Shown: positions 14,758-64,000 of the stretch, one piece after another
Layout of the letters: each line of letters starts with the position of its first letter
Position numbering within the stretch: position 1 is the stretch's first letter
NCBI GenBank assembly: GCA_039621445.1
Contig: CP154954.1
Coordinates: 21,464,954-21,528,953 of the forward strand
From: Euglena gracilis
Taxonomy: Eukaryota
DNA length: 64,000 bases
Direction of reading: 5' to 3'
Notes under the pieces: generated by a model
What the model saw: only the letters and a program-made list of their open reading frames with translations
What the model was told of the DNA's origin: nothing
Database searches by the model: none
Made by a program: the position numbers and the translations under genes

Positions 14758-17597
14758 AGGCCCCTAGGGCTTGAGCCCTTGGAAAAGGAAAGGTTTCCTG
14801 CGGGGGTGTGCATGCACTCTCCTCTCTTCTCACTCTCTCTCTGGAGGATCTTGTTGTTGGAACGCATACCATAGGGCTTACTGCCCCTGTTTTGCCTATC
14901 AGGCCTCCTTGATGATGATGGTGTTGGTATCCATACCGTAGGGGGGCCTCTGTGGGTCCCCCCCTTCTTGATTTCACTGGGGAATTTGAAGATTATTGAA
15001 TAAATACTTTTGGGGGTCCTTCCCCTTCCGCCTGTTCCTCCTGGGGTTGGGCATTTGGTAAACACAAAGCCCTTGTGGGGCTGCCCTTTAGCTTCTGGGG
15101 GGCCTCTGGAGGTCCACCCCCTGTATGGCTGCCATAGCCCTTGTATTGGCCACCTTGGCCCAAGCCCCATTTGTTCTGACCTCCATGGCCGGGGCCGTAA
15201 GTTCTGGCTTCTTGCCATGCCCAATTGAAATCTGGGGGAGCCCTGTTGCTGGGCCTCCCCCTTCCCCCCTGGAATGGGGTTGTGGGCTGACTTTGAAAAG
15301 GATGGCTGGTACAGACCTTTTTTGCCCCTTCCTGTGGGCATTCTGCTCCAGACTGGGCCATCTGCTGGCTTCCCAATGTTGTACTGGCCCCCTTGTCCCT
15401 TATTCCATCTTGATAGGTTGGGGGCATTTGCCCTCTGGGCTGGGGATTTTGCTGTCTGGGCTGGGCCTGCCAATCTTGAAGGTTGCTTGTACCCCAATTT
15501 GAAATGTAATGGGTCTTGACCCTGGGTACCCAAATGTCTCCCGTTGTCGTCTGGGCTTTTTGCCCACTGTCTGCCAGGGTCCATGGCCATCACTGTGTGT
15601 GGTTTTCTGCTGCTGAAAGTTTTCTGTTGAGACTGTTGGGGGGGGAAGTGATGGCCACGGTTCGCCACGCTGAAACCGCATCTCCAAGTTCTCCAGCTGG
15701 CGTTTCTCGTTCTGCACTTTGTCCGGGTTGTCGACTTGATACTTCCAATTTGTTCTCCACATTCTGCATTGACTTCCAATGTCAAAGTTGTAATAATTTC
15801 TTGAATTTGATATTCTTCAGGTTCTACAGGTTCTGAATATGGATATTGTACTGTCTTGATCTCTTCCAACTCTGGTCCTCGTACTCCCTCGAGGAAAACC
15901 GACCAGGGAGGAAGGGACACCGAGGGCGAAGTACAAAGACCTTGTGAGGCCATGTTCTCCAGAGCTTTTCGAAAGTTTTCATGACTGACATGAAAATTTG
16001 GGGCATTACATTTAGCACAAAGCAGCCTGTTTGAATTTCCCAGGTCTGCCCCCCACCTGATGTCTCAAAAATGGCCTTTGACCTGGACTTACTGGAATAT
16101 GGAAATAGGCATCCTTGAGGTCTATCTTTGCTGCCCAGTGGCCTTTTTCCAAAACTGCTGGATATGATCCAGCTTGAAAGGTTTTACCTGAAATTGCTGA
16201 TTGATTTCTCTGCAGTCGCTGATCATTCTCCACTTGGTTGTTCCCCCCTCTGGTTTTGAAATTAAAAACCATGGGATCAAATGCAGGGGTTTCTGAATCC
16301 CAAACTCGTTTCACTGACCCAGTTTTTTCGTAATCCAGCAGAATTTTTTCTGCCTGGTTTAAGTCCAGGTTGGCTCTGGGTTTTGGGTGGGTGGACAATT
16401 TTGGGGGATTCACCCAGGGGGTTGAATTCCATTTTTTATCAATTGACATGTTGCTGGGGGGGCATTTTTTGTCCACCATTTTAGACTTTTCTGAAGTCTC
16501 TGGTACAGGGGGGTGTCTCCCCATTTTTCCTCCATGGAATGTATTTTCCAAACTAGATGATTTTCTGGGTGCTGGGTGGGGGGTGTTGGACATTGCACCC
16601 CTGGTGCCCCTGGGGAATGAGCATTTTCTAAAGGTGGCTGGGTGGGTGTGCATGCTCTGCTCACAGGTTCTCTGATCCTCCACTTTGTCATTGGTGTTGT
16701 CGATTGACATACCATAGGGGCCCCTTGGGTCTCCCCCTTGTTTGATTTGCCCCTGCCATGGGCATTGATAAAGAATGTTGAGGGGGGGGGGTTGCCCCCT
16801 TGTCCTCCACTGCTCCTTTGGGGGCATCCTCCTGGGGCTGCCACCGTACATTGAATCCCCGTGCTGGGGGACAGCCATTTAGCTTCTGGGGATTTCCCCC
16901 TTTTGATAATTGGCCCCAGTGGCCTTGAACTTGTTGATGTTGAGCATGGTGCTGGGCCCTGTGGCCTTGATAAAATTGATGATGGCCCCAATGGCCTTGA
17001 TGATAATTCTGGCCCCACTGGCCTTCTTGATGTTGGCCCAACTGGCCCTCTTGAAATGTTGACAGTCCCCATTGACTTTTCTTTGATCTTGGGCGCCATG
17101 CCCATTGAAAATGTTGGGGGGCTTCTGGGGGCCAATCCTTTTCCCCTGGTAGGGTTCGTGATGAAGAAATGATTGGGGGGGGGTGTTGTGGACCTGTCCT
17201 GCCCCTGCCACTGGGCATCTGTTTGTGGAATCGGACTCCCACGACACAGGAAGGGGGAGGAAGGGACCAAGAGGGCGAAGCACAAGAAGATGGTGAGGTC
17301 CTGCTTTCCTTGCCGGCTGTTCTGTTCTGGTGTGTTTGTGCGTGCGCGGGGGGTGCTTCTTACTGCGCCTTTGTTGCCGGAGTTGGCGATGATGAGGCCT
17401 CCTCCGACACCTTGGCGAAGCTGAAACGCCGTGGCCCCGCCCCCCCCCTCTCCCATGGTCGGGGCCCCCCCCCCCCCCCCTGATGGGGATGGTGGTCTCT
17501 TTCTGTGTTTCTGGGTGGGTGGTTGGGGCTGCTTGGTTGGGGGTCCCTTTTCTGGTTGGGATGTTTTTCTGCTGATTTTTTGGGTGGGAGGGTTGGG

Positions 17598-17699
17598 CTC
17601 ACCATCTTCTTGTGCTTCGCCCTCTTGGTCCCTTCCTCCCCCTTCCTGTGTCGTGGGAGTCCGAGACCATTCGGGCTCCGCACTGCGAGATGGTGAGGT
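17598..17699 (-). repeat. Internal complementary region (ICR) of element A
   Basis: Reverse complement of 17231-17297 fused to reverse complement of 21807-21840, with junction GGGAGTCCGA|GACCATTCGG. Confidence 0.9.
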
Positions 17700-18700
17700 A
17701 CTGTGCACCCCCCTTTGGGCCATAATTTTTTGAATTTTTGACACGACTCCCAGCCTCAAATAATGAGCTTGGAAGGCACCAAAATTTTTCCACTGACCCA
17801 GCTGCTGGACTTCTTCCACTTGCAAACCAGCATTTTTCCACCATAAGACCCCAGCCCCTCTGGTGCTGTGGGGTTTCCAGTGGGTGGTGTCCACCCCCCC
17901 CTCCTGCAGAATTTCTTTGGTTAGGGAATTCACCCTTTCTGATGTCAAAGGTCTTTTACCATCCAAAGACCACAACAAATTATTTTTGTGCCCAACCATG
18001 TGGGCTGTCCTTTCCACATACTCTTTCAATAAATGCCATGGGCTTATGAGGGGGGTGTGTGGCAAATTCAAAATCTCTTCCCATTTTGGGAATTGCCACC
18101 CTTTCCTTTGCAATAAAATGAAAATTTTTTCTCCCACGAAACTGATTTTTCGCTGTGTCCTGGCTAAATCAACCCCCCTGTGGAGGGCCAAAAGCCTCCA
18201 ACAGATGATGAGTCTGTTTCTGAGCTCTTTCACAGATAGGTCTGAGAGGGGTGTGGAATTCCTCATGATGTTTTCTAGGAAATCAGTGGGGTCCCAAAAG
18301 TGGGCATACTTGCAGACATTGGCATTCCACTTCCTTTTCAATGGAGCCAGAAGGGGTGAAAATCTCAAAGACCCAAACCCTGGGAGTAGTAAGGCTGCTG
18401 CATATGCATTTCGTGCAGTATTGATGCTATGAACAGCAAGATCAAGGATGGCTTCAGCCATCTTGGGGACTGTGCACTGCTGCAGAGGCACCCCTTTGTG
18501 CAATAATTGACCCACCAATGCCCTGAAGGCTGAGTCATATCTTTTGACATTTCCCAGATTTTTTATGTAAGTGTCGATACTGGACATCGAAACTTCCTGG
18601 GATTGTAATATTTGCCTGACACAATCAAGCAGGCCAAATTCCACCTTGGGGGGGGCATCTCCTCCCCCCAGCAGTTGGTGAACAGACCCCACTGGGGGGG
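17700..18700 (-). CDS. Tyrosine recombinase of element A; frame continues through the ICR
   Basis: LALHRGVDLA (R), KPHSTRGAG (HxxR), LGQWKNFGAFQAHYLRLG (W, catalytic Y). Confidence 0.88.
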
Positions 18701-20520
18701 GTACTAGCAAAACCTTGCTGCCTGGCTGCCTGATTGACATTAATTGGCGCCACCATGATGTCGAAGCCCAGTGGGGTACAATCAACAGACAAATTAGGTC
18801 TGGGTTTAACATTAATCTCTGAATCCATTGGGGAATGATGCTCCAGGGAGGGTTGGCATAAACTGGGGGGAGACCCCTTAAATCTGCCTTCAGAGCATCC
18901 ACCAACAAAGCCCCTTGGTGGGGGTATCGACAAATGAACTTGGGGAATTTTTTGTTGCTGGGTGTGCAAAACATGTCCACCTCTGGGGTGATGTGGTTTT
19001 TGAAAAACTTCAGAATCTGGTGAAAAATGGTCAGATTCAGGGTATAATCCCCTGGATCTTTTTGCTCCCTGGTCAGGGAGTCTGCCAATTGTTCTTTTGT
19101 GGGAACCCAAACCACCTGCAAGTTGATTTGCCTTTCTTGGCAATGGTACAGAAGGGGTTTTAGGATGGAATTTAAATATGGCTTTTTGCCTCCCCATTTT
19201 GTCAAATAACTGACTGCCACCTGGCTGTCCACATGAAGAACAATGGTTTGTTTTGGTTTTGCCAAAGCCTTTACAGTTTCCACCGCAGACATCAATTCTT
19301 TTTGATTGATGTGAAGGACATGCAGGTCCCTCCAGAAATCCTGGACCTTTTGACCAGACTTTTTGTCCAGCCCCCCCCATTGCCAGGTGCTGCTGTCTGA
19401 GAACAGTTCCTGAGAGGCCTGGGATTGAAAGGCTCTGCCCACACCTGGCTGCAAAAACGTTTTTAACTCCACAATTTGATCTTTGACCCCCTGGGGAATG
19501 GTCAGGGTGTGGTCCCAACCCCACTTCGTGTGTGCAAATCCACCATTTTGCAAAGTTGATCTGTCAGAATTCTGAGAAAAGGCATTGAAACTAAATAGCT
19601 TCTGACTTGCCCTACAATAGAGCTGAGTTTTCTGCAGCTCATCTTTTGTGCTGTCAGCACCTTTCCTAATTCCTTTCTTAGGGATTTTAATTTTTCCTGT
19701 GGAATTTCCAGCTGGCCTTTTTTCAAATTGATCCACTGGCCCAAATGCTTTATTTCTTGTGTTGGTTCCAGACATGATTTGGGGAGGTTTATTCTGAAAC
19801 CTGCCAGTAAAAGATCTTTTTTCATTTCTGCCAAATGCTGGGCTGCTGTCTTTTTGCTGGGGGCTAACAGCAAAATGTCGTCTAGGTAGATGAAAACTAC
19901 CTTTCCTTCCTTCCTCCATTTCCTTTCCCAGACTCTCATGAGAGTCATAAACTTTTGTGGCAGGCTGCTTAACCCAAAGCATGCAGCTTGAAATTGCCAC
20001 GTTTCCCCCCCCCACTTGCATGCAGACATGCTTTTCCAGGCTGCTGTGCAGCTTTAAATGGAAATAAGCATCTTTCAGATCTATTTTTCCACAGAACCAA
20101 CCCTTTCTGAGATATGGGAAAATGTTTCCCATGTGTTCCAGTCTGAACTTCTGGGGGGTGAAATAGTGATTTAACTGTCGACAATCTGAAATTAGTCTTT
20201 CCTTGGTCTTTTCCCCTTCTTTTTTGGAAATTATGAAGTAAGGGACAAAATGTTTTGCCTCCTCTGGGGGGATTTGCCTGGTTGCCCCTGCACATTCGTA
20301 TTCTCTCAGAATTTTTTGGGCAGTCATTACTTCCTGGGGGGCTTTGAAGGGAACTTTTAAGGACATTAGAGGGGGGAGGGGAAGATCTGCCATGACCCCT
20401 TCCCTTATCAGGTTTAATACCTCTCTGCTGGCACCTGCCTTTTCCCAATGGGGGATACTGGCCTGCAGGGCTTTGTAAGGGGGCACCCCTGGGTGTAATG
20501 TGTCTGGGGATTCCACAGGC
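18563..20520 (-). CDS. pol of element A: RT-RNase H-N6-adenine methyltransferase, with about three frameshifts
   Basis: KIDLKDAYFH; FIYLDDILL in frame 19502..20029; FSDSSTWQWGG, HINQKEL, VDSQVAV, LADSLTR; VDMFCTPSN...VYANPPW. Shifts near 20030, 19530 and 18695. Confidence 0.88.
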
Positions 20521-21483
20521 CCCATCACTGGGGTCCTTCCCCCTGGCTGCCCCATCACTGGGGTCCTCTCTGGCTGCCCCATCACTGGGGTCACCTCTGG
20601 CCCTGCCATAGGGCTGTTCAAAGACAGGCTTTCCCCCTGTTTTTGAAAGATGGGGGAAGGTCTGTTTCTGCAGTGGGGAGGTACATATACAGCTGGGGGG
20701 TGTGGGCTGATTATCTTCTGGGGGGGCCCTGGTGTAGCCAATCTTGGGCCTCCCCCCCAAGGGCTGTGGTCTTGAATGCATTGGCCTCCCATGGCCACCT
20801 GATTTTGATTGAAATGGCCTCCATTGGCCTTGATATTTTCCCTCTGGCCTCCATTGGCCTCTTGGATATAATGGCCTCCATTGGCCTGCCCCTGAAGGGG
20901 GGGCTGCTTGCTTGGATGGGCAGCTCCTGAGGGGTTTTTGATTGAGGGAGCTGTGGGGTAAGTTGGACATACCTTCCCCCAGTGGGATCTTCCCAGGTTG
21001 GGATACAGGCTGCCATAGCCTTGCAACTGGGCCCACTGCCCTCTTGAATGCTGGCTGCCATAGCCTTGATTCTGGGCCCCAGGCCCTGTTAAATGATGGC
21101 TGCCATAGCCTTGAGTTTGATTTGAATCCTTTGGATTTCTGATATCTCCAGAGAGGCTGCCATAGCCTTTGCTTTTTCCCCTGGAGGGGGAGGAATTGGG
21201 AAAAAGGGGTGGAGTCTGTTGGACCTGTGATGGTAGTCCCCCTCTGTCTTCTCTTCCTGACCACTGCTGTCCATGGTCCATGGCCATCATTTTGAGTGGG
21301 GGATCCTGAAAACTTTGAATTGCTGGGGGGTGGGGGGGTTGCGATGGCCACGGACTGACGTGCTGCTGCCGCCTCATCACCTTCTGCAGCTGCTGCTGTG
21401 TGTCCACCTTCCCCAGCTGTTTTCTTGGAAGTTCGTTGGAGTTCTTCTTGGCAGTTTGAATTTCTTTGCAGATCATTCTTCAT
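19969..21483 (-). CDS. Gag-like/ORF1 low-complexity protein of element A, overlapping pol
   Basis: Long overlapping frames. DGHGPWTAVVRK resembles DGHRLWQTVVRK (B) and DGHGPWQTVGKK (C). Contains internal peptide repeats. Confidence 0.5.
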   Translation of the reverse strand: MKNDLQRNSNCQEELQRTSKKTAGEGGHTAAAAEGDEAAAARQSVAIATPPPPSNSKFSGSPTQNDGHGPWTAVVRKRRQRGTTITGPTDSTPFSQFLPLQGKKQRLWQPLWRYQKSKGFKSNSRLWQPSFNRAWGPESRLWQPAFKRAVGPVARLWQPVSQPGKIPLGEGMSNLPHSSLNQKPLRSCPSKQAAPPSGAGQWRPLYPRGQWRPEGKYQGQWRPFQSKSGGHGRPMHSRPQPLGGRPKIGYTRAPPEDNQPTPPSCICTSPLQKQTFPHLSKTGGKPVFEQPYGRARGDPSDGAAREDPSDGAARGKDPSDGACGIPRHITPRGAPLQSPAGQYPPLGKGRCQQRGIKPDKGRGHGRSSPPPSNVLKSSLQSPPGSNDCPKNSERIRMCRGNQANPPRGGKTFCPLLHNFQKRRGKDQGKTNFRLSTVKSLFHPPEVQTGTHGKHFPISQKGLVLWKNRSERCLFPFKAAQQPGKACLHASGGGKRGNFKLHALG

Positions 21484-27319: not shown

Positions 27320-28152
27320 CAGGGATCCTCACACGTCCGTGCTGGCCGAGGCCAAAATGTATCCGTGATTTTCCGTGATTTTCCGTGATTTTCTGTGATT
27401 TTCCGTGATTTTCCGTGATTTTCTGTGAATTTCCTGTTTCCGGAAAAGGTCAAAGGCAACATTCCATTCTGCACTGGAGCCATATTTGGGCGGTTGTGGC
27501 AGATTGTTTCTCCATAGTATAGTTCTGGAGATGCCCCAGTTCCTATCCGCACCTGTATATGAAAATAAAAATAAATTTGTACAGGAGGGGAAAAAACAAC
27601 CTTTTGTCCTTGAATATTTTTCTTGATTGCCCCTAAATGGGTTGCCAAAATCCTGTCAGCAGACCAATATAGCGATTGACCATTCCGCATACAGCCTGGG
27701 CGGAAAGATGGAAGATCATAAAACCAACACGCCCCCAACTTGTCTGTATTTCTGGAGAGCACCTATGATGCTTTCGAGGTCCAATTTTGTGACCGGGAGA
27801 CCAGAATGGAGGAAAACGGCCACAAAATCATCTGTGATTGTCTGGGTGAGGTTTTGCTTCTTCACTGACTCCCGAAAATCCAACTGCTTCAGTGGGGTGT
27901 CTTGGCTGGGAAGAAAATTTTACAATGAATTGGACGACATTGTCTGTTTGGAAAGGCAGAGAATGTGCAAAACATCCATCAAAATGTATCTGCACAAACA
28001 AAACACATTCAAAAAAAGCCCAAATTTTTTTTCCGAACCCTCCTCCTTGTCCGTGAATTTCCGTGATTTTCCGTGATTTCCGTGAAAATGGCCTTCCGCC
28101 CATTTCCGTGATCCTCCGTGAATTTCCTTTTCAGGACGTGTGAGAATCCCTG
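27320..28152. mobile_element. Non-autonomous TIR element with 7-bp TSD (P-like)
   Basis: 19-bp TIR CAGGGAT(C/T)CTCACACGTCC, TSD CACAATG, (TTCCGTGATT)n near both ends. Confidence 0.85.
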
Positions 28153-32424: not shown

Positions 32425-35400
32425 TTAGAGTGGGGGGGGGGGGTTCTGGGTAGTCGACCGACTAGTCGGTCGACTAGTTCACCGACTACTAGTCGACCGA
32501 CTGGTCGGTGGGGGGAACTGGGTAGTCGGTCGACTAGTCGACCGACTACCCACTCTAATGTACTAAAAGGGGGGGGTCACCGACTTTTTAAGCCCCCCCC
32601 CCGCAAAAATTGTGTTGCCGAACCGTTTTGGAAGGGAATCCCTTTTGCTGCTCAACTGTCCCAGGGCCCCAAAATAACAAAATCACTTGTGTAGCCGAAC
32701 CGTTTTGGAAGTGAATCCCTTTTGCTGCTCAACTGTCCCAGGGCCCCAAAATAACAAAATACCTTGTGCTGCCGAACCGTTTTGGAAGCGAATCCCTTTT
32801 GCTGCTCAACTGTCCCAGGGCCCCAAAATAACAAAATCCCTTGTGCTGCCGAACCGTTTTGGAAGCGAATCCCTTTTGCTGCTCAACTGTCCCAGGGCCC
32901 CAAAATAACAAAATCCCTTGTGTAGCCGAACCGTTTTGGAAGCGAATCCCTTTTGCTGCTCAACTGTCCCAGGGCCCCAAAATAACAAAATCCCTTGTGC
33001 TGCCGAACCGTTTTGGAAGCGAATCCCTTTTGCTGCTCAACTGTCCCAGGGCCCCAAAATAACAAAATCCCTTGTGCTGCCGAATCGTTTTGGAAGCGAA
33101 TCCCTTTTGCTGCTCAACTGTCCCAGGGCCCCAAAATAACAAAATCCCTTGTGTAGCCGAACCGTTTTGGAAGCGAATCCCTTTTGCTGCTCAACTGTCC
33201 CAGGGCCCCAAAATAACAAAATCCCTTGTGTAACCGAACTGTTTTGGAAGCGAATCCCTTTTGCTGCTCAACTGTCCCAGGGCCCCAAAATAACAAAATC
33301 CCTTGTGTTGCCGAACCGTTTTGGAAGCGAATCCCTTTTGCTGCTCAACTGTCCCAGGGCCCCAAAATAACAAAATCCCTTGTGTTGCCGAACCGTTTTG
33401 GAAGCGAATCCCTTTTGCTGCTCAACTGTCCCAGGGCCCCAAAATAACAAAATCCCTTGTGTAGCCGAACCGTTTTGGAAGCGAATCCCTTTTGCTGCTC
33501 AACTGTCCCAGGGCCCCAAAATAACAAAATCCCTTGTGTAGCCGAATCGTTTTGGAAGCGAATCCCTTTTGCTGCTCAACTGTCCCAGGGCCCCAAAATA
33601 GCAAAATCCCTTGTGTAGCCGAACCGTTTTGGAAGCGAATCCCTTTTGCTGCTCAACTGTCCCAGGGCCCCAAAATAACAAAATCCCTTGTGTTGCCGAA
33701 CCGTTTTGGAAGCGAATCCCTTTTGCTGCTCAACTGTCCCAGGGCCCCAAAATAACAAAATCCCTTGTGCTGCCGAACCGTTTTGGAAGCGAACCCCTTT
33801 TGCTGCTCAACTGTCCCAGGGCCCCAAAATAACAAAATCCCTTGTGCTGCCGAACCGTTTTGGAAGCGAATCCCTTTTGCTGCTCAACTGTCCCAGGGCC
33901 CCAAAATAACAAAATCCCTTGTGCTGCCGAACCGTTTTGGAAGCGAATCCCTTTTGCTGCTCAACTGTCCCAGGGCCCCAAAATAACAAAATCCCTTGTG
34001 TAGCCGAATCGTTTTGGAAGCGAATCCCTTTTGCTGCTCAACTGTCCCAGGGCCCCAAAATAACAAAATCCCTTGTGCTGCCAAACCGTTTTGGAAGCGA
34101 ATCCCTTTTGCTGCTCAACTGTCCCAGGGCCCCAAAATAACAAAATCCCTTGTGTAGCCAAACCGTTTTGGAAGCGAATCCCCTTTGCTGCTCAACTGTC
34201 CCAGGGCCCCAAAATAACAAAATCCCTTGTGCTGCCAAACCGTTTTGGAAGCGAATCCCTTTTGCTGCTCAACTGTCCTAGGGCCCCAAAATAACAAAAT
34301 CCCTTGTGCTGCCGAACCGTTTTGGAAGCGAATCCCTTTTGCTGCTCAACTGTCCCAGGGCCCCAAAATAACAAAATCCCTTGTGTAGCTGAACCGTTTT
34401 GGAAGCGAATCCCTTTTGCTGCTCAACTGTCCCAGGGCCCCAAAATAACAAAATCCCTTGTGCTGCCAAACCGTTTTGGAAGCGAATCCCTTTTGCTGCT
34501 CAACTGTCCCAGGGCCCCAAAATAACAAAATCCCTTGTGCTGCGGAACCGTTTTGGAAGCGAATCCCTTTTGCTGCTCAACTGTCCCAGGGCCCCAAAAT
34601 AACAAAATCCCTTGTGTAGCCGAACCGTTTTGGAAGCGAATCCCTTTTGCTGCTCAACTGTCCCAGGGCCCCAAAATAACAAAATCCCTTGTGCTGCCAA
34701 ACCGTTTTGGAAGCGAATCCCTTTTGCTGCTCAACTGTCCCAGGGCCCCAAAATAACAAAATCCCTTGTGCTGCGGAACCGTTTTGGAAGCGAATCCCTT
34801 TTGCTGCTCAACTGTCCCAGGGCCCCAAAATAACAAAATCCCTTGTGCTGCCGAACCGTTTTGGAAGCGAATCCCTTTTGCTGCTCAACTGTCCCAGGGC
34901 CCCAAAATAACAAAATCCCTTGTGTAGCCGAACCGTTTTGGAAGCGAATCCCTTTTGCTGCTCAACTGTCCCAGGGCCCCAAAATAACAAAATCCCTTGT
35001 GTTGCCGAACCGTTTTGGAAGCGAATCCCTTTTGCTGCTCAACTGTCCCAGGGCCCCAAAATAACAAAATCCCTTGTGTAGCCGAACCGTTTTGGAAGCG
35101 AATTCCTTTTGCTGCTCAACTGTCCCAGGGCCCCAAAATAACAAAATCCCTTGTGTTGCCGAACCGTTCATGAAACAAAAGGGATGTTTTGACAACTTTG
35201 AAGGCTTCAGATCTGTTTTCTTTCAAATTCTAGTCCAAAACAAGTCAAATCAATGTTGGGGGGGGGGGGCTTAAAAGGTCGGTGACCCCCCCTTTTGGTA
35301 CATTAGAGTGGGTAGTCGGTCGACTAGTCGACCGACTACCCAGTTGCTCCCATACCCAGTACCCCCCCCCCTTGTACCGACTAGTCGACCGACTAGTCGG

Positions 35401-54127: not shown

Positions 54128-54492
54128 GTGTGCCTGGGCAATTACCCAGTTGGGCAGCCGTTGCTCATATGTGGCTGTCCGTACCATGTCAAAGGAGCTC
54201 GTCCAGTCTGCCCCACGGCTGCATCTGCTGCGCCGCTCTTTCCACCCGACACCCCCAATCTACCCCCTGGGCCCCCCAGCTCGCCAGCTCACCAAAGTTT
54301 GGGGAAAGGTGGGAAGGGGACAGTTTTTTTTTTCTATCCTAAAAGGGAGCACCAGTTGGCCAGGCATTTAGAGCAATTGGATTGGTCGTCGCATGATGCT
54401 GGTTTGATACTCACGTGTGACTCAAACCAAATGATCACGGCTTTCTCAACTGACCGGGTCCGGGGCCACCGTTTTTAAAAATGCTGGGCAAA
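54128..54492 (+). repeat. Inverted partial copy of the array unit
   Basis: Reverse complement of about 54741-55095, separated from it by a spacer of about 250 bp. Confidence 0.9.
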
Positions 54493-56706
54493 TCTCAAAC
54501 CACGTTCTGCCTTCCTTATATATGAAAAATCTGTCCAGTATTAGCATTAGCGTCCCGTCTGCATTTTTATCTTCAGTACTTCAAATCTTAAACCCCCGCA
54601 CCTATAAGAAACCCATTTCTTATAGGTGGATTTCCAAAAAAAAATGGCCCGAGGGGTTTCTTATACCTGGGTTACAATGTCCCAAAAAAATTTGAGCTGA
54701 CAAAAAGTCAAAAGTGACAAAAAAACAATCAAAATTTTTCTTGCCCAGCACTTCAAAAACAATGGCCCTGAATTGAGAAAACTGTGATCATTTGGTTTGA
54801 GTCACACGTGAGTATCAAACCAGCATCATGCGACGACCAATCCAATTGCTCTAAATGCCTGGCCAACTGGTGCTCCCTTTTGGGCTAGAAAAAAAAAACT
54901 GTCCCCTTCCCACCTTTCCCCAAACTTTGGTGAGCTGGCGAGCTGGGGGGTCCAGGGGGTAGATTGGGGGGTGTCGGGTGGAAAGAGCGGCGCAGCAGAT
55001 GCAGCCGTGGGGCAGACTGGACGAGCTCCTTTGACATGGTACGGACAGCCACATGTAAGCAACGGCTGCCCAACTGGGTAATTGCCCAGGCACACCCATC
55101 CCTTATCTGAACTTCGCCCCCTTTCGTGCCTTTTGGCAGGCTCCCAATGCTGATGGCCCAGTCAGACTCAACGGAACTGCATCACAGGAATCAGCAGTCT
55201 AAGGAGCAAAGGTTGGTCATCACGAAGCCCAGCAAACTGCAACAGCTGGGCTTTCACACACCACTCAGGTTGACCGGGCCCTCTTCTGCCTTTCTCCCCA
55301 ACTGGCGCGGCCACCCCAGACCTTCAGCCACCAGTCAACACCTTCCGCCAACCCAACGCTTCAATGCCAATACCCAGGAATGCAGGAGGCAGGTGCGATT
55401 CCGTTGTCCATCCCGGAACGTACCGAACGCCTCCCATCACCCTCCTGCCCACCCGCTGGGGCCGGTGGGAGGGTGCGGTTCTGTGACCCAGTGCAGAACG
55501 GCAAAGCTGATTGGTGCCCCGGTGCACAAAACGCCTCCAGCGGAGGAGGTAATTTGCAACCCAGGGGGGAAAACCTGTTGGTTGTCCACTGCTGAGCACA
55601 TCCGCCAACAATCAAATAGTCCACTTGAACACTTGCCGGCAAAACGCAACCGATACCGCGGAAACCCCATCAACGGGGATCACGGGCAGCTGTGGCTTGC
55701 CCAGCACTTCAAAAACAATGGCCCTGGATCCGGTCAGTTGAGAAAGCTGTGATCATTTGGTTTGAGTCACACGTGAGTATCAAACCAGCATCATGCGACG
55801 ACCAATCCGATTGCTCTAAATGCCTGGCCAATTGGTGCTCCCTTTTAGGATAGAAAAAAAAAACTGTCCCCTTCCCACCTATCCCCAAACTTTGGTGAGC
55901 TGGCGAGCTGGGGGGCCCAGGGGGTAGATTGGGGGGTGTCGGGTGGAAAGAGCGGCGCAGCAGATGCAGCCGTGGGGCAGACTGGACGAGCTCCTTTGAC
56001 ATGATACGGACAGCCACATATGACCACCGGCTGCCCAACTGGGTAATTGCCCAGGCACACCCATCCCTTATCTGAACTTCGCCCCCTTTCGTGCCTTTTG
56101 GCAGGCTCCCAATGCTGATGGCCCAGTCAGACTCGACGGAACTGCATCACAGGAATCAGCAGTCTAAGGAGCAAAGGTTGGTCATCACGAAGCCCAGCAA
56201 ACTGCCAGAGCTGGGCTTTCACACACCACTCAGGTTGACCGGGGCCCTTTCTCCCCAACTGGCGCGGCCACCCCAAACCTTCAGCCACCAGTCAACACCT
56301 TCCTCTTTCCCCAACACCCCGCCAACCCAACGCTTCAATGCCAATACCTGGGAATGCAGGAGGCAGGTGCGATTCCGTTGTCCATCCCGGAACGTCCCGA
56401 ACGCCTCCCATCACCCTCCTGCCCACCCGCTGGGGCCGGTGGGAGGGTGCGGTTCTGTGACCCAATGCAGAACGGCAAAGCTGATTGGTGCCCCGGTGCA
56501 CAAAACGCCTCCAGCGGAGGAGGTAATTTGCAACCCAGGCGGGAAAACCTGTTGGTTGCCCACTGCTGAGCACATCCGCCAACAGTCAAATAGTCCATTG
56601 AACACTTGCGGGCAAAACTCAACCGATACCGCGGAAACCCCATCAACGGGGATCACGGGCAGCTGTGGCTTGCCCAGCACTTCAAAAACAGAGGCCCTGG
56701 ACCCGG

Positions 56707-56767
56707 TCAGTTGAGAAAGCTGTGATCATTTGGTTTGAGTCACACGTGAGTATCAAACCAGCATCAT
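56707..56767 (-). ncRNA. Box C/D snoRNA-like gene A; copies at 55734, 57680, 58653, 59603, 62587, 63540, and a + strand copy at 54393-54453
   Basis: ATGATGC(C)-tggtttgatactcacgt-GTGA(D'?)-ctcaaaccaa-ATGATCA(C')-cagctttctcaa-CTGA(D), 61 nt. The copy near 54770 lacks box D. Confidence 0.5.
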
Positions 56768-57100
56768 GCGACGACCAATCCAATTGCTCTAAATGCCTGG
56801 CCAACTGGTGCTCCCTTTTGGGCTAGAAAAAAAAAACTGTCCCCTTCCCACCTTTTCGGCAAACTTTGGTGAGCTGGCGAGCTGGGGGGCCCAGGGGGTA
56901 GATTGGGGGGTGTCGGGTGGAAAGAGCGGCGCAGCAGATGCAGCCGTGGGGCAGACTGGACGAGCTCCTTTGACATGATACGGACAGCCACATATGACCA
57001 CCGGCTGCCCAACTGGGTAATTGCCCAGGCACACCCATCCCTTATCTGAACTTCGCCCCCTTTCGTGCCTTTTGGCAGGCTCCCAATGCTGATGGCCCAG

Positions 57101-57162
57101 TCAGACTCGACGGAACTGCATCACAGGAATCAGCAGTCTAAGGAGCAAAGGTTGGTCATCAC
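57101..57162 (-). ncRNA. Box C/D snoRNA-like gene B; further copies start at 55162, 56127, 58074, 59043, 59996, 62976 and 63933
   Basis: GTGATGA(C)-ccaacctttgctccttagactg-CTGA(D')-ttcct-GTGATGC(C')-agttccgtcgagt-CTGA(D). All four boxes are invariant in 8 copies. Confidence 0.75.
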
Positions 57163-60100
57163 GAAGCCCAGCAAACTGCCAGAGCTGGGCTTTCACACAC
57201 CACTCAGGTTGACCGGGCCCTTTCTCCCCAACTGGCGCGGCCACCCCAAACCTTCAGCCACCAGTCAACACCTTCCTCTTTCCCCAACACCCCGCCAACC
57301 CAACGCTTCAATGCAAATACCTGGGAATGCAGGAGGCAGGTGCGATTCCGTTGTCCATCCCGGAACGTCCCGAACGCCTCCCATCACCCTCCTGCCCACC
57401 CGCTGGGGCCGGTGGGAGGGTGCGGTTCTGTGACCCAATGCAGAACGGCAAAGCTGATTGGTGCCCCGGTGCACAAAACGCCTCCAGCGGAGGAGGTAAT
57501 TTGCAACCCAGGCGGGAAAACCTGTTGGTTGCCCACTGCTGAGCACATCCGCCAACAGTCAAATAGTCCATTGAACACTTGCTGGCAAAACTCAACCGAT
57601 ACCGCGGAAACCCCATCAACGGGGATCACAGGCAGCTGTGGCTTGCCCAGCACTTCAAAAACAGAGGCCCTGGACCCGGTCAGTTGAGAAAGCTGTGATC
57701 ATTTGGTTTGAGTCACACGTGAGTATCAAACCAGCATCATGCGACGACCAATCCAATTGCTCTAAATGCCTGGCCAACTGGTGCTCCCTTTTGGGCTAGA
57801 AAAAAAAAACTGTCCCCTTCCCACCTTTTCGGCAAACTTTGGTGAGCTGGTGAGCTGGGGGGCCCAGGGGGTAGATTGGGGGGTGTCGGGTGGAAAGAGC
57901 GGCGCAGCAGATGCAGCCGTGGGGCAGACTGGACGAGCTCCTTTGACATGGTACGGACAGCCACATATGAGCAACGGCTGCCCAACTGGGTAATTGCCCA
58001 GGCACACCCATCCCTTATCTGAACTTCGCCCCCTTTCGTGCCTTTTGGCAGGCTCCCAATGCTGATGGCCCAGTCAGACTCGACGGAACTGCATCACAGG
58101 AATCAGCAGTCTAAGGAGCAAAGGTTGGTCATCACGAAGCCCAGCAAACTCCAGAGCTGGGCTTTCACACACCACTCAGGTTGACCGGGGCCCTTTCTCC
58201 CCAACTGGCGCGGCCACCCCAGACCTTCAGCCACCAGTCAACACCTTCCTCTTTCCCCAACACCCCGCCAACCCAACGCTTCAATGCCAACACCCGGGAA
58301 TGCAGGAGGCAGGTACGATTCCGTTGTCCATCCCGGAACGTCCCGAACGCCTCCCATCACCCTCCTGCCCACCCGCTGGGGCCGGTGGGAGGGTGCGGTT
58401 CTGTGACCCAATGCAGAACGGCAAAGCTGATTGGTGCCCCGGTGCACAAAACGCCTCCAGCGGAGGAGGTAATTTGCAACCCAGGCGGGAAAACCTGTTG
58501 GTTGTCCACTGCTGAGCACATCCGCCAACAGTCAAATAGTCCACTTGAACACTTGCCGGCAAAACTCAACCGATACCGCGGAAACCCCATCAACGGGGAT
58601 CACGGGCAGCTGTGGCTTGCCCAGCACTTCAAAAACAGTGCCCTGGATCCGGTCAGTTGAGAAAGCTGTGATCATTTGGTTTGAGTCACACGTGAGTATC
58701 AAACCAGCATCATGCGACGACCAATCCAATTGCTCTAAATGCCTGGCCAACTGCTGCTCCCTTTTGGGCTAGAAAAAAAAAACTGTCCCCTTCCCACCTT
58801 TTCGGCAAACTTTGGTGAGCTGGCGAGCTGGGGGGCCCAGGGGGTAGATTGGGGGGTGTCGGGTGGAAAGAGCGGCGCAGCAGATGCAGCCGTGGGGCAG
58901 ACTGGACGAGCTCCTTTTGACATGGTACGGACAGCCACATATGACCAACGGCTGCCCAACTGGGTAATTGCCCAGGCACACCCATCCCTTATCTTCGCCC
59001 CCTTTCGTGCCTTTTGGCAGGCTCCCAATGCTGATGGCCCAGTCAGACTCGACGGAACTGCATCACAGGAATCAGCAGTCTAAGGAGCAAAGGTTGGTCA
59101 TCACGAAGCCCAGCAAACTCCAGAGCTGGGCTTTCACACACCACTCAGGTTGACCGGGGCCCTTTCTCCCCAACTGGCGCGGCCACCCCAGACCTTCAGC
59201 CACCAGTCAACACCTTCCTCTTTCCCCAACACCCCGCCAACCCAACGCTTCAATGCCAACACCCGGGAATGCAGGAGGCAGGTACGATTCCGTTGTCCAT
59301 CCCGGAACGTCCCGAACGCCTCCCATCACCCTCCTGCCCACCCGGGTTCTGTGACCCAATGCAGAACGGCAAAGCTGATTGGTGCCCTGGTGCACAAAGC
59401 ACCTCAAGCGGAGGAGGTAATTTGCAACCCAGGGGGGAAAACTTGTTGGTTGTCCACTGCTGAGCACATCCTCCAAAGGGTCAAATTGTCCACTTGAACA
59501 CTTGCCGGCAAAACTCAACCGATACCGCGGAAACCCCATCAACGGGGATCACGGGCAGCTGTGGCTTGCCCAGCACTTCAAAAACAGTGGCCCTGGATCC
59601 GGTCAGTTGAGAAAGCTGTGATCATTTGGTTTGAGTCACACGTGAGTATCAAACCAGCATCATGCGACGACCAATCCAATTGCTCTAAATGCCTGGCCAA
59701 CTGGTGCTCCCTTTTGGGCTAGAAAAAAAAAACTGTCCCCTTCCCACCTATCCCCAAACTTTGGTGAGCTGGCGAGCTGGGGGGCCCAGGGGGTAGATTG
59801 GGGGGTGTCGGGTGGAAAGAGCGGCGCAACAGATGCAGCCGTGGGGCAGACTGGACGAGCTCCTTTGACATGATACGGACAGCCACATATGACCACCGGC
59901 TGCCCAACTGGGTAATTGCCCAGGCACACCCATCCCTTATCTGAACTTCGCCCCCTTTCGTGCCTTTTGGCAGGCTCCCAATGCTGATGGCCCAGTCAGA
60001 CTCGACGGAACTGCATCACAGGAATCAGCAGTCTAAGGAGCAAAGGTTGGTCATCACGAAGCCCAGCAAACTGCCAGAGCTGGGCTTTCACACACCACTC

Positions 60101-60556
60101 AGGTTGACCGGGGCCCTTTCTCCCCAACTGGCGCGGCCACCCCAGACCTTCAGCCACCAGTCAACACCTTCCTCTTTCCCCAACACCCCGCCAACCCAAC
60201 GCTTCAATGCCAATACCTGGGAATGCAGGAGGCAGGTGCGATTCCGTTGTCCATCCCGGAACGTCCATGCTTGTGCTTACCAACCGGGGGGGAGGGGGGG
60301 GTGGGTGCTATAGGGTGCCTGCCCCTAGCAGGCACACCCCCCCGGGGGTGCGGCCGCCCGGGGTACCCAGGGTTGGGTTGGGGGAGGTTGGGCAGATCTC
60401 CGTGTGTCCGAGAATCAACAAGCAACCAGGTCGCGATAAGCATCAATGCATTAGGAGCGTTGCATGGTCATTTCCCCGAAGACGGGGCATGTTACAGATT
60501 AATCAGAGGATGACGATGAAGAAACTTCATCATCGGAGGATGACTCACTATATACA

Positions 60557-61277
60557 TCAACCGAAATTTGCCCTCCCCCCCTTTGCCTTTTCCTTCCCTT
60601 TTCCTTTCTCTTTTCTGGGTGCTCTTTTTGATCCCTTGTCGGCTCTTGCCAAGCGAAAATGCAGCCTTGGCGTCGCGTTTACCAGCCGGTCCAGCACAGG
60701 TTGAAAATTATATTCCTCCCATGGTGCTGCATCCAAACACAACACCATTAGCTGCTCAACGAGAGCAACATCCAACAGCGTACGCTGGTCAGAGAGAATG
60801 CGCCTCAATTTGGAAAAAGCGGACAAAACCAGGGTGCTGTCTAAAATACCAAGGCGATGAACACCATAAAAACAGCACCCTACCTTCAACTTGAGCATTG
60901 GAAGGGGTTAGTGCGAGGCACATCCGGAGGAAATAATGCAGCTGAGGAAAATTTCCTCGGTTTGAAATTATCCGCTTCCAAAAAAGCGCGGATTCTGCTG
61001 GCCGGGTTACAGTTTCAGCCACGGAGACCATGGCATTAAACTCCGTGTGGAGAGCATCAAAAGTGATGTTCCACCTTTGCAAGCTCCCTTCCCAGTGGTC
61101 AAAAATAGGACGGATGGAGGTTTCAGCGAATGAGGCAGGTAAATTTGTTGGCCAACTGTTCAAATTGAGCCAGGAGAGGGAATCCAAGACGGAGCGGGAA
61201 ACAAAGCGGTCAGAAATTTGAGTCAATATAACCTTGTGAACCTCGTGCAAGACAGAGGCACCTTGGGTTACATGCAA
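60557..61277 (-). pseudogene. hAT transposase C-terminal dimerization domain, split by an intron
   Basis: Spliced product LFWKRI...FPQLHYFLRMCLALTPSNAQVE/SAFSKLRRILSDQRTLLDVALVEQLM matches the hATC pattern. Confidence 0.8.
60825..60885 (-). other. Nonconventional (euglenid-type) 61-nt intron
   Basis: aggTAGGGTGCTGT...ACAGCACCCTGgtttt forms an end-to-end stem with CTG at -8..-6. Removal restores the frame and the hATC motif. Confidence 0.75.
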
Positions 61278-64000
61278 GCTTGTATCTAACGAACCAGGTT
61301 ACAAAGTTGTCCCCATGTCGGATGTCGGATGTCGGACTGGAAATCCCCATGACATGTCCGCAAAAGAGACGCAAACTTGATTCCAGAGTCGGCAATTTGA
61401 ACACCTTGGAATTCCAAGAATCCCTTACTTCGCCCAGGCTGAAGGTGCGATTTCAAGCCATTCCCTCTTGATCCCTCTTGCGTCAACAAACATCAAACCA
61501 GGCGAGGGTGGTCAAGCCTCATCCCTGGTTCCATGGTTGGGGCACTGCGCACCGACTCCGCAGACTCGCTGCACTCCATGATCGTTGAACTCGAAACAAA
61601 AAACACGAATCTTCTTCAATATCCACTGTCTAACATTTGCAACATCATTTGTTAGAAGAAGAAACATGAACAGCACGTTGGGACACCACGGGAAACAAGC
61701 GTTTCTTGTTCGGTTTCGCGGCCATCCTCATCCGGTGCTTCGTCCCGCGGAGGTGTTCACGAACGGCATTCGGGGCCGTTGACACCGCCAGCAACGCCAT
61801 TCGAATAAAACCATTGCACAACAAAAATTTCCTTCAGTCCACATTCCTTCTGGTGTTTGTACAAAAAAAATTTGGGAAACAAACAGGCGGATAATAAAGG
61901 TAAAAAAAAGGAAATATGCCACAGGACACGCAACAATGGGGGTTTTGCATCAAAAAGGGATACTTTTGAACCTCAAAAGAAAACTGGTCCACATATTTGG
62001 GCAAATATCAGATTGGCGTTGATACTCAATCCACATTCACATTTTGTAGTAGACATGGCTGAGAGAGAGAGAGAGGAAAACACAACAGCCCTTGTCAAAA
62101 AGGTAAAATGAAGGTCATCCGTCGCCGGACAGGGGTGCCTGCCCAACCCACCCCTGAAACCCTACCCCCCCCCCCCGGGGGGGTCGGCAGGGGTGCTATG
62201 GGGTGCCTGCCCCTAGCACCCACCCACCCCCCCCCCGTGGGGTAGGCACCCGACTAAGCACAAGCCTGGGAACGTCCCGAACGCCTCCCATCACCCTCCT
62301 GCCCACCCGCTGGGGCCGGTGGGAGGGTGCGGTTCTGTGACCCAATGCAGAACGGCAAAGCTGATTGGTGCCCCGGTGCACAAAACGCCTCCAGCGGAGG
62401 AGGTAATTTGCAACCCAGGCGGGAAAACCTGTTGGTTGACCACTGCTGAGCACATCCGCCAACAGTCAAATAATCCACTTGAACACTTGCCGGCAAAACT
62501 CAACCGATACCGCGGAAACCCCATCAACGGGGATCACGGGCAGCTGTGGCTTGCCCAGCACTTCAAAAACAGTGCCCTGGATCCGGTCAGTTGAGAAAGC
62601 TGTGATCATTTGGTTTGAGTCACACGTGAGTATCAAACCAGCATCATGCGACGACCAATCCAATTGCTCTAAATGCCTGGCCAACTGGTGCTCCCTTTTG
62701 GGCTAGAAAAAAAAAACTGTCCCCTTCCCATTTTTTCCCAAACTTTGGTGAGCTGGCGAGCTGGGGGGCCCAGGGGGTAGATTGGGGGGTGTCGGGTGGA
62801 AAGAGCGGCGCAGCAGATGCAGCCGTGGGGCAGACTGGACGAGCTCCTTTTGACATGGTACGGACAGCCACATATGAGCAACGGCTGCCCAACTGGGTAA
62901 TTGCCCAGGCACACCCATCCCTTATCTGAACTTCGCCCCGTGCCTTTTGGCAGGCTCCCAATGCTGATGGCCCAGTCAGACTCGACGGAACTGCATCACA
63001 GGAATCAGCAGTCTAAGGAGCAAAGGTTGGTCATCACGAAGCCCAGCAAACTGCCAGAGCTGGGCTTTCACACACCACTCAGGTTGACCGGGGCCCTTTC
63101 TCCCCAACTGGCGCGGCCACTCCAGACCTTCAGCCACCAGTCAACACCTTCCTCTTTCCCCAACACCCCGCCAACCCAACGCTTCAATGCCAATACCCGG
63201 GAATGCAGGAGGCAGGTGCGATTCCGTTGTCCATCCCGGAACGTCCCGAACGCCTCCCATCACCCTCCTGCCCACCCGCTGGGGCCGGTGGGAGGGTGCG
63301 GTTCTGTGACCCAATGCAGAACGGCAAAGCTGATTGGTGCCCCGGTGCACAAAGCACCTCCAGCGGAGGAGGTAATTTGCAACCCAGGGGGGAAAACTTG
63401 TTGGTTGTCCACTGCTGAGCACATCCTCCAAAGGGTCAAATTGTCCACTTGAACACTTGCCGGCAAAACTCAACCGATACCGCGGAAACCGGGCAGCTGT
63501 GGCTTGCCCAGCACTTCAAAAACAGTGCCCTGGATCCGGTCAGTTGAGAAAGCTGTGATCATTTGGTTTGAGTCACACGTGAGTATCAAACCAGCATCAT
63601 GCGACGACAATCCAATTGCTCTAAATGCCTGGCCAACTGGTGCTCCCTTTTGGGCTAGAAAAAAAAAACTGTCCCCTTCCCACCTTTTCGGCAAACTTTG
63701 GTGAGCTGGCGAGCTGGGGGGCCCAGGGGGTAGATTGGGGGGTGTCGGGTGGAAAGAGCGGCACAGCAGATGCAGCCGTGGGGCAGACTGGACGAGCTCC
63801 TTTGACATGATACGGACAGCCACATATGACCACCGGCTGCCCAACTGGGTAATTGCCCAGGCACACCCATCCCTTATCTGATCTTCGCCCCCTTTTGTGC
63901 CTTTTGGCAGGCTCCCAATGCTGATGGCCCAGTCAGACTCAACGGAACTGCATCACAGGAATCAGCAGTCTAAGGAGCATATATGGGTCATCACGAAGCC

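What the first reader, a model, noticed from the sequence alone, without database searches (positions are those of the whole stretch)
54741..64000. The ~973-bp 'satellite' appears to be a tandem box C/D guide-RNA (snoRNA) gene array
Seen: each unit carries, on the minus strand, a 62-nt cassette with C/D'/C'/D boxes and a second, weaker 61-nt cassette. In the last copy (63933-63994) about 7 nt next to box C are replaced, while the 14 nt before D' (TGCTCCTTAGACTG) are unchanged. The only D-guide variant is a C/U change compatible with G pairing. Known: Euglena gracilis has tandemly repeated, polycistronic snoRNA clusters and heavily modified rRNA. Inference: these are 2'-O-methylation guides. 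The D' guide's complement contains CTAAGGAG, also found in the conserved LSU motif GCTAAGGAGTGTGTAACAACTCAC, but the match beyond that core is unverified and the guides could be orphans.
Basis: partly seen in the sequence, partly recalled or inferred. Interest (0 to 1): 0.8.

Follow-up and report, generated by a model that had tools for sequence, protein, structure and literature searches.

The report
Tandem array of box C/D snoRNA genes
The roughly 970-base repeat is very probably a head-to-tail array of genes for two small methylation-guide RNAs per unit, an arrangement already described in Euglena and its relatives, so it is a well-formed but ordinary example whose RNA targets are still unconfirmed.

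Summary
Eight minus-strand units of 953-974 bp fill 54741-64000. One unit carries a 2,003-bp transposon-like insertion.

Each of the 8 units has a 62-nt cassette with perfect C, D', C'-like and D boxes. Seven units have a complete 61-nt second cassette. An eighth complete copy of it lies in an inverted partial unit at 54128-54492.

This box architecture occurs nowhere else in the window. It appeared 0 times in 200 simulated 64-kb sequences with strict rules, and 0.03 times per simulation with relaxed rules.

Cassette 1 is unstructured inside and closed by a 10-bp external stem. Its best Rfam match is SNORD104, at 19 bits against a gathering score of 40, with E 0.01-0.1. The match shares the 8 guide bases next to D'.

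No target of 10 bp or more could be verified, because the organism's rRNA was not available.

Expression is untested, and the copies are too alike to show selection.

Verdict: a real snoRNA gene array, a new member of a known kind, of low to moderate interest.

The parts
54741..64000 (-). Tandem array. It has 8 units of 953-974 bp. The first (lowest-coordinate) unit is truncated to 489 bp, and the last is cut by the window end, so the array probably continues beyond 64000.
55162..55223 (-). Cassette 1, copy 1. Layout: GTGATGA, 22-nt guide, CTGA, TTCCTG, TGATGC, 13-nt guide, CTGA. This copy has T at position 5 upstream of D.
56127..56188 (-). Cassette 1, copy 2. Best Rfam match is SNORD104 over 56125-56191.
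57101..57162 (-). Cassette 1, copy 3.
58074..58135 (-). Cassette 1, copy 4. An external 10-bp stem with a 2-nt bulge pairs 58137-58146 with 58060-58071.
59043..59104 (-). Cassette 1, copy 5.
59996..60057 (-). Cassette 1, copy 6.
62976..63037 (-). Cassette 1, copy 7.
63933..63994 (-). Cassette 1, copy 8 (an isoform). It has 4 substitutions in the box-C-proximal part of the D' guide, and T at position 5 upstream of D.
55734..55794 (-). Cassette 2, copy 1. Layout: ATGATGC, 17 nt, GTGA, 10 nt, ATGATCA, 12-nt guide, CTGA.
56707..56767 (-). Cassette 2, copy 2.
57680..57740 (-). Cassette 2, copy 3. An internal hairpin (TGGTTTGA with TCAAACCA) encloses the candidate D' box.
58653..58713 (-). Cassette 2, copy 4.
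59603..59663 (-). Cassette 2, copy 5.
62587..62647 (-). Cassette 2, copy 6.
63540..63600 (-). Cassette 2, copy 7.
54773..54829 (-). Cassette 2, dead copy at the array end. Box D and the bases after it are deleted, and there is one C>T change in the guide.
54128..54492 (+). Inverted partial copy of the unit, 367 aligned bases, 96% identical. It holds a complete cassette 2 at 54393-54453 on the + strand, convergent with the array.
60266..62268 (.). A 2,003-bp insertion in the spacer of one unit. It has an 8-bp target-site duplication (GACGTTCC) and 14-nt terminal inverted repeats that match at 13 of 14. It touches no cassette.
   Evidence: no Pfam domain in its ORFs

Best explanation
Each unit of about 970 bp encodes two box C/D small nucleolar RNAs on the minus strand.

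snoRNA 1 (62 nt) is a compact double guide:
- Box C is GUGAUGA.
- A 22-nt spacer follows. Its last 14 nt (UGCUCCUUAGACUG) are the invariant D' guide.
- D' is CUGA, followed by a 6-nt linker and C' UGAUGC.
- A 13-nt D guide (AGUUCCGUCGAGU) follows, then D CUGA.
- A 10-bp external stem would bring boxes C and D together into the kink-turn.

snoRNA 2 (61 nt) has box C AUGAUGC and D CUGA. Its internal pair is degenerate, with C' UGAUCA and D' GUGA. In that pair the C'-6/D'-1 positions are C and G, which keeps the pair that is G and C in canonical boxes. An internal hairpin sequesters the upstream spacer, so probably only its 12-nt D guide (CAGCUUUCUCAA) works.

Inferred, not shown:
- The array is transcribed as a long precursor from a promoter beyond 64000 and trimmed to the snoRNAs.
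- The snoRNAs bind Snu13, Nop56, Nop58 and fibrillarin.
- They direct 2'-O-methylation of the target base opposite the 5th guide base upstream of D' or D.

Predicted target strings, which are the + strand of the window:
- AGUC*UAAGGAGCA for the D' guide of snoRNA 1.
- ACUCG*ACGGAACU for its D guide.
- UUGAG*AAAGCUG for snoRNA 2.

My best guess for the D' guide, at about 0.4, is the LSU site served by SNORD104 in humans (28S C1327). The confidence of 0.78 is for 'genuine snoRNA gene array', not for any particular target.
For: Architecture:
- There are 8 of 8 strict hits inside the array, 0 elsewhere in 64 kb, and 0 in 200 simulations.
- The relaxed rule gives 16 hits, all of them the two cassettes, against 0.033 per simulated window.
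- Both cassettes lie on the same strand, about 390 nt apart start to start, in every unit.

Rfam in E-value mode:
- Four C/D families align to cassette 1 end to end on the minus strand. They are SNORD104 (19.0 bits, E 0.0096 in a 101-nt search and 0.1 in a 1,061-nt search), snoMe28S-Am982 (17.8 bits), sR48 (14.6 bits) and SNORD12 (14.5 bits).
- Cassette 2 aligns weakly to sR42 and SNORD83.
- The SNORD104 consensus shares UUAGACUG-CUGA, GUGAUGC and GAGUCUGA in register.
- A table read (PMC3766210) lists the SNORD104 target as 28S rRNA C1327.
- The complement of the SNORD104 consensus guide fits the LSU context AGTCTAAC seen downstream of the pattern in most of the 48 foreign LSU loci.

Fold:
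- The cassette 1 interior is no more structured than shuffles (z +0.84).
- The flanks form a 10-bp stem.

Variation:
- All 6 variable columns in the cassettes lie outside the boxes.
- One is the C/U at guide position 5, where either base can pair with G.
- The 2-kb insertion, the 17-21-nt deletions and the indels all fall in spacers.

Literature, passages read:
- Euglena and trypanosomatid modification-guide snoRNA genes are clustered (PMC2784804).
[quoted passage not shown] - Over 200 snoRNAs have been identified in E. gracilis (PMC6366073).
Against: - No Rfam family reaches its gathering score: 0 hits in the whole window, and SNORD104 scores 19 bits against 40.
- No canonical duplex of 10 bp or more was found for any of the four guides in the 48 foreign eukaryotic rDNA loci. 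The best scores were within or barely above those of shuffled guides. At the SNORD104 site only 7 Watson-Crick pairs (positions 2-8) form.
- The predicted 18-mer target gave 10 metagenome hits, and none lies in an rRNA.
- The 21-mer gave 0 hits in genome contigs.
- The only LSU loci with G after TCTAA (2 loci) continue differently.
- Boxes are not significantly better conserved than spacers: 0 of 43 columns against 53 of 831, P about 0.06. For whole cassettes the figures are 6 of 123 against 53 of 831.
- Spacers of about 330 and 510 nt are long and hold nothing that I could identify.
- I did not verify the organism's identity.
Confidence: 0.78

Rival explanations
1. The array holds real box C/D RNAs, but they are orphans. 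They would have no rRNA methylation target and act on other RNAs or in processing, or they are an amplified and largely redundant or decaying gene family.
For: No canonical target was found in any rRNA that I could reach. One cassette 2 copy is dead and one cassette 1 copy has a changed guide. A transposon sits in the array.
Against: The rRNAs searched are from other eukaryotes, so the test is weak. The 8 guide bases next to D' equal those of SNORD104, an rRNA guide. The position-5 variant keeps pairing with G.
Confidence: 0.12
2. The array is a plain satellite repeat in which snoRNA-like boxes occur by chance, amplified along with the unit.
For: The copies are 94-100% alike everywhere, so nothing in the array itself shows selection on the cassettes. 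The window is rich in other repeats and mobile-element remains.
Against: The chance of the strict architecture in one unit of about 1 kb is below about 1 in 10,000: 0 hits in 25.6 Mb of simulated sequence, both strands. A second cassette sits on the same strand at about 5 in 10,000. There is also the external stem and the register-true Rfam alignments.
Confidence: 0.05
3. A rival at the level of the target. The D' guide of snoRNA 1 would pair with the small-subunit rRNA, in the helix just upstream of the conserved CAGATACC motif, or with the reader's LSU CTAAGGAG site, rather than with the SNORD104 site.
For: The best duplex of all four guides over 48 loci was in the SSU of locus L035. It spans 18 positions with 2 mismatches and 3 G-U pairs, and contains a 10-nt identity to GGAGCAAAGG. 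Its score is 12.5, against a maximum of 11.5 in 20 shuffled guides.
Against: A 10-mer identity somewhere in the pooled loci is about what chance gives (my own rough estimate, not a tool result). Two other SSU loci read differently there.
Confidence: 0.2

Closest known systems
Clustered, tandemly repeated modification-guide snoRNA genes of Euglena gracilis (Moore and Russell 2012; Russell, Schnare and Gray 2006). I saw both only as citations and one-sentence descriptions in other papers; I did not read the papers themselves.
   Same: Several snoRNA genes lie on one strand in a unit repeated head to tail. The RNAs are compact, about 60 nt. Isoforms differ by a few bases.
   Different: I did not verify that the window comes from Euglena. 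I could not check whether these two RNAs are among the more than 200 already catalogued, because the papers are not held and supplements are closed. The spacers here (about 330 and 510 nt) may be longer than in the published clusters, but that comparison rests on recall only.
Trypanosomatid snoRNA clusters
   Same: [quoted passage not shown]
   Different: Those clusters mix C/D with single-hairpin H/ACA-like RNAs. I found no convincing AGA- or ACA-box hairpin in this unit.
SNORD104 (U104), Rfam RF00289, guide for human 28S rRNA C1327
   Same: It has identical D'-proximal guide bases (UUAGACUG) plus D' CUGA, the same C' (GUGAUGC) and the same D-proximal GAGU, in the same register. Its target is listed in PMC3766210.
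   Different: It scores 19 bits against a gathering score of 40. The 5' half of the guide differs, as it must if the rRNA differs. The organism's LSU sequence at that site is unknown to me.
Mammalian SNORD115/SNORD116 tandem arrays (recalled, not checked here)
   Same: There are many near-identical C/D snoRNA copies in kilobase-scale tandem units.
   Different: Those copies are intronic in a long host transcript and are orphan guides. Here no host gene or intron signals were examined.

Membership tests
Box C/D snoRNA (2'-O-methylation guide) | Box C (RUGAUGA) near the 5' end and box D (CUGA) near the 3' end, about 55-75 nt apart. | tested here: met
   Cassette 1 has GTGATGA and CTGA in 8 of 8 copies. 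Cassette 2 has ATGATGC and CTGA in 8 complete copies.
Box C/D snoRNA (2'-O-methylation guide) | Internal D' and C' boxes in the right order and spacing. | tested here: met
   Cassette 1 has CTGA and TGATGC 6 nt apart. Cassette 2 has only degenerate boxes, GTGA and TGATCA.
Box C/D snoRNA (2'-O-methylation guide) | A terminal stem that brings boxes C and D together, with an otherwise open guide region. | tested here: met
   For cassette 1 there is a 10-bp flank stem with a 2-nt bulge, and the interior is not structured (z +0.84). All copies are identical there, so there is no covariation.
Box C/D snoRNA (2'-O-methylation guide) | A guide of 10 nt or more complementary to rRNA or snRNA, with the target opposite position 5 upstream of D or D'. 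| tested here: inconclusive
   The organism's rRNA was not available. In 48 foreign rDNA loci there are at most 7 Watson-Crick pairs in the canonical register at the SNORD104 site. Exact-pattern scans found no rRNA.
Box C/D snoRNA (2'-O-methylation guide) | A stable RNA of about 60-100 nt bound by fibrillarin, Nop56, Nop58 and Snu13. | not testable with these tools
   This needs small-RNA data or immunoprecipitation. Searches gave no test.
Rfam RF00289 SNORD104 | A score at or above the family's gathering threshold of 40 bits. | tested here: not met
   The score is 19.0 bits, and there were 0 gathering-level hits in the window.
Euglenozoan tandem snoRNA gene cluster | Two or more snoRNA genes on one strand in a unit repeated in tandem. 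| tested here: met
   There are two cassettes per unit in 8 units. Contigs of two other runs join the unit's end back to its start, implying a repeat period of 973-974 bp.
Euglenozoan tandem snoRNA gene cluster | Polycistronic transcription across units. | tested here: inconclusive
   0 reads were laid from two RNA-seq runs, which the tool calls 'no test'. Contig runs guessed to be RNA cover the whole unit, but they are not shown to be RNA.
Euglenozoan tandem snoRNA gene cluster | The source organism is a euglenozoan. | not tested
   Organism names are coded. A recalled spliced-leader motif gave 0 matches in the window, which proves nothing.

The most novel reading that the evidence does not exclude
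The guides have no canonical rRNA target. The array would then be a fast-evolving nursery of guide RNAs, in which tandem copies drift to new specificities. Copy 8, with four changes in its D' guide, would be one example. The convergent inverted copy of cassette 2 at the array's end would give double-stranded RNA that controls the array's output.
Probability: 0.08. Interest if true: 0.55.

Novelty: new member of a known kind. Interest (0 to 1): 0.25.

Why it matters
If it is confirmed, the array adds two guide RNAs and their gene organisation to the catalogue of an organism with unusually heavily modified rRNA.

It also gives a clean genomic example of how such genes are amplified. The example includes an isoform, a dead copy, an inverted copy and a transposon hit.

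The likeness to SNORD104 would place one more methylation guide among those shared between very distant eukaryotes. None of this changes what is known about how such guides work.

Tried and rejected
- **Own genome.** None is held, so no search of the organism's rRNA was possible.
- **Sequencing runs.** No RNA holder is listed. Two raw-read RNA-seq runs gave 0 reads from about 5% of each run, which the tool marks as no test. Two contig runs guessed to be RNA cover the unit but are not shown to be RNA.
- **Predicted target in metagenome contigs.** There were 10 hits. All lie in non-rRNA contexts, with 0 Rfam hits.
- **Longer or other target strings.** There were 0 hits in genome contigs. There were 3 hits in viral contigs, which I did not examine further. 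Two LSU loci have G after TCTAA but a different continuation.
- **Guide scan over foreign rDNA.** I scanned 48 foreign eukaryotic rDNA loci. The best scores were at or near those of shuffled guides.
- **Rfam on six long rDNA loci.** The tool failed and I did not repeat it. I used a motif search in a script instead.
- **Further RNAs in the spacers.** Sliding-window folds gave a few windows with z below -2.5. The detailed folds were not significant, with z from -0.3 to -1.6, and showed no pseudouridylation pocket with an AGA or ACA box.
- **Plus-strand ORFs in the units.** None of 4 has a Pfam hit.
- **Full-text search for the guide and cassette strings.** 0 papers hold them.
- **Key papers not held**. 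These are Moore et al. 2018, Russell et al. 2004 and Liang et al. 2005. Their tables and supplements may already list these RNAs.
- **Earlier notes of this scan.** There are none for this genome or sequence.
- **Recalled spliced-leader motif.** It gave 0 matches in the window, which is uninformative.


Full report
**1. What is there**

The string formed by the end of the D' guide and the D' box (TGCTCCTTAGACTGCTGA) occurs 8 times in the window. All 8 are on the minus strand between 55191 and 63979, and none are expected by chance.

I cut the region at these anchors. That gives one truncated unit of 489 bp at the low-coordinate end, six units of 953-974 bp, and one of 2,980 bp. In a MAFFT alignment the units are near-identical along their whole length.

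The long unit carries a 2,003-bp insertion at 60266-62268. The insertion has an 8-bp target-site duplication and 14-nt terminal inverted repeats that match at 13 of 14. It lies in spacer sequence.

The window ends 6 nt upstream of box C of the last copy, so the array probably runs on. Left of the array, at 54128-54492, lies an inverted partial copy of the unit, 96% identical.

**2. The cassettes are not chance**

A strict double-guide pattern hits exactly 8 times in the 64 kb. The pattern is RTGATGA, 10-24 nt, CTGA, 2-14 nt, TGATGN, 9-22 nt, CTGA. It hit 0 times in 200 simulated windows.

A relaxed pattern allows one mismatch in each of C' and D' and any base at C position 7. It hits 16 times:
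- the 8 copies of cassette 1;
- 7 complete copies of the 61-nt cassette 2 in the array;
- one copy of cassette 2 on the + strand in the inverted partial unit (54393-54453).

It hits nothing else in the window. The mean was 0.033 hits per simulated window over 60 runs. A ninth cassette 2, at the truncated end of the array (54773-54829), has lost box D.

**3. Anatomy**

Cassette 1 reads as follows:
- GUGAUGA (box C);
- CCAACCUUUGCUCCUUAGACUG (22-nt spacer and D' guide);
- CUGA (D');
- UUCCUG (linker);
- UGAUGC (C');
- AGUUCCGUCGAGU (13-nt D guide);
- CUGA (D).

Folded with 15 nt of flank on the box C side and 14 nt on the box D side, the interior is no more structured than shuffles (z +0.84). 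The flanks pair in a 10-bp stem with a 2-nt bulge, which ends 1 nt before box C and 2 nt after box D. This is what a C/D kink-turn needs.

Cassette 2 reads as follows:
- AUGAUGC (box C);
- UGGUUUGAUACUCACGU (17 nt);
- GUGA (candidate D');
- CUCAAACCAA (10 nt);
- AUGAUCA (candidate C');
- CAGCUUUCUCAA (12-nt D guide);
- CUGA (D).

The C' and D' boxes of cassette 2 are degenerate. However, C' position 6 is C and D' position 1 is G, which keeps the pair that is G and C in canonical boxes. That is my reading of the sequence, based on the established kink-turn model. UGGUUUGA pairs with UCAAACCA in the minimum-energy fold. The upstream spacer is therefore probably not a guide.

**4. Comparison with known RNA families**

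At gathering thresholds Rfam finds nothing in the window.

In E-value mode on one unit, the best match is SNORD104 over 56125-56191 on the minus strand. It scores 19.0 bits against a gathering score of 40. E is 0.1 for 1,061 nt and 0.0096 for 101 nt.

Three further C/D families align in the same register: snoMe28S-Am982, sR48 and SNORD12. Cassette 2 gets only weak C/D hits, sR42 at 10.3 bits and SNORD83 at 12.3 bits.

The SNORD104 consensus and cassette 1 share three elements in register: UUAGACUG followed by CUGA, then GUGAUGC, then GAGUCUGA. A table in PMC3766210 lists SNORD104 as the guide for 28S rRNA C1327.

I fetched 48 eukaryotic LSU fragments that sit as contaminants in prokaryote assemblies. 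Most read AAGGAGTCTAAC, followed by six variable bases and then GCGAGT, downstream of the search pattern. The complement of the SNORD104 consensus guide fits that site.

Cassette 1 would pair with AGUCUAA there at positions 2-8, which puts the C opposite position 5. It then needs GGAGCA where those organisms have other bases. This part of the rRNA varies between lineages, so the idea is reasonable, but it is unproven.

**5.

The motif CTAAGGAGTGTGTAAC is present in 17 of the 48 LSU loci. The others may simply be too short to include it. There the guide forms 8 Watson-Crick and 2 G-U pairs, but only from position 5 outward, and positions 2-4 are unpaired. The base to be methylated would sit at the very end of the duplex, which is not the canonical geometry.

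**6. Other target searches**

A scan of all four guides over the 48 loci gave best scores at or near those of shuffled guides. The one exception is marginal. The D' guide of cassette 1 pairs with the SSU of locus L035, just upstream of CAGATACC. This duplex spans 18 positions with 2 mismatches and 3 G-U pairs, and scores 12.5 against a shuffle maximum of 11.5. L035 is a divergent eukaryote of unknown kind.

Exact-pattern scans gave nothing useful:
- The 18-mer with a conserved LSU prefix gave 10 metagenome hits, none in an rRNA.
- The 21-mer gave 0 hits in genome contigs.
- Two LSU loci have G after TCTAA but then diverge.

No genome is held for the window. The decisive test, against the organism's own rRNA, could therefore not be run.

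**7. Variation**

I masked the stretch next to the insertion. After that, 59 of 954 alignment columns vary by substitution:
- 6 of 123 inside the cassettes;
- 53 of 831 outside them;
- 0 of 43 in the eight boxes, P about 0.06.

This is not significant. The copies are too young to show selection.

The six variable cassette columns are these:
- four in the box-C-proximal part of the D' guide, all in copy 8;
- the C/U at position 5 upstream of box D, with T in copies 1 and 8;
- one C>T in the dead cassette 2.

Contigs from another run show the same position-5 variant. A C/U choice at the position opposite a G is what a working guide would tolerate, but this is a single observation.

**8. Expression**

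Contigs of two other runs run from the end of the laid stretch back to its start, with 13 and 26 further letters between. That gives a repeat period of 973-974 bp, so the tandem arrangement is not an assembly artefact of this window alone.

**9. Context and literature**

The window is rich in repeats and mobile-element remains.

Passages that I read say the following:
- Modification-guide snoRNA genes are frequently clustered in trypanosomatids and Euglena (PMC2784804).
- Euglena snoRNA genes are mainly in polycistronic clusters that produce isoforms (PMC7671301, citing Moore and Russell 2012).
- Trypanosome snoRNAs come from long polycistronic transcripts (PMC2613932).
- Over 200 Euglena snoRNAs are catalogued (PMC6366073; PMC7200641).

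The primary papers are not held, and supplements are closed. I therefore cannot say whether these two RNAs are already listed. Full-text searches for their sequences found no paper. I did not verify that the window is from Euglena.

**10. Verdict**

This is very probably a genuine tandem array of two box C/D snoRNA genes per unit (0.78). It is a known kind of organisation.

The D' guide looks like the counterpart of SNORD104, which points to the LSU site equal to human 28S C1327, not to the CTAAGGAG site. My odds for the SNORD104 site are about 0.4.

Interest is low to moderate.

Noticed in passing
60266-62268: A 2,003-bp insertion in one array unit. It has an 8-bp target-site duplication (GACGTTCC) and 14-nt terminal inverted repeats matching 13 of 14, and G- or C-rich subterminal tracts. 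Its ORFs have no Pfam hit. It is probably a non-autonomous DNA transposon of unestablished class.
   Followed up: partly
54128-54492: An inverted partial copy of the repeat unit, 96% identical, about 250 bp beyond the array's end. It holds an intact cassette 2 on the + strand. If it is co-transcribed with the array, it could form double-stranded RNA.
   Followed up: partly
67-1797 (+) and 16410-21476 (-): The first is an ORF with an integrase core (rve, E 1e-10) and a chromodomain hit just under Pfam's cut-off (24.9 vs 25.1 bits), so a Ty3/gypsy-type retroelement remnant. The second is a 1,688-aa ORF with a weak tyrosine-recombinase hit (22 bits, below the cut-off).
   Followed up: partly
32610-35168: A 77-bp satellite with 33 copies and 97% matches. 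Several decamer arrays lie elsewhere, for example at 27362-27434, 37346-37438 and 40153-40228. I saw no snoRNA-like boxes in the 77-bp unit.
   Followed up: no
each unit, e.g. about 57822-57831 (minus strand): A run of ten T on the coding strand lies between cassette 1 and cassette 2 in all 8 units. It would stop RNA polymerase III, so a Pol III read-through of the whole unit is unlikely.
   Followed up: no
L035 (genome contigs locus): A complete, divergent eukaryotic rDNA (SSU, ITS, 5.8S, LSU) lies inside a 532-kb contig of a metagenome-assembled genome labelled Actinomycetota. This is a mis-binned or chimeric contig.
   Followed up: no
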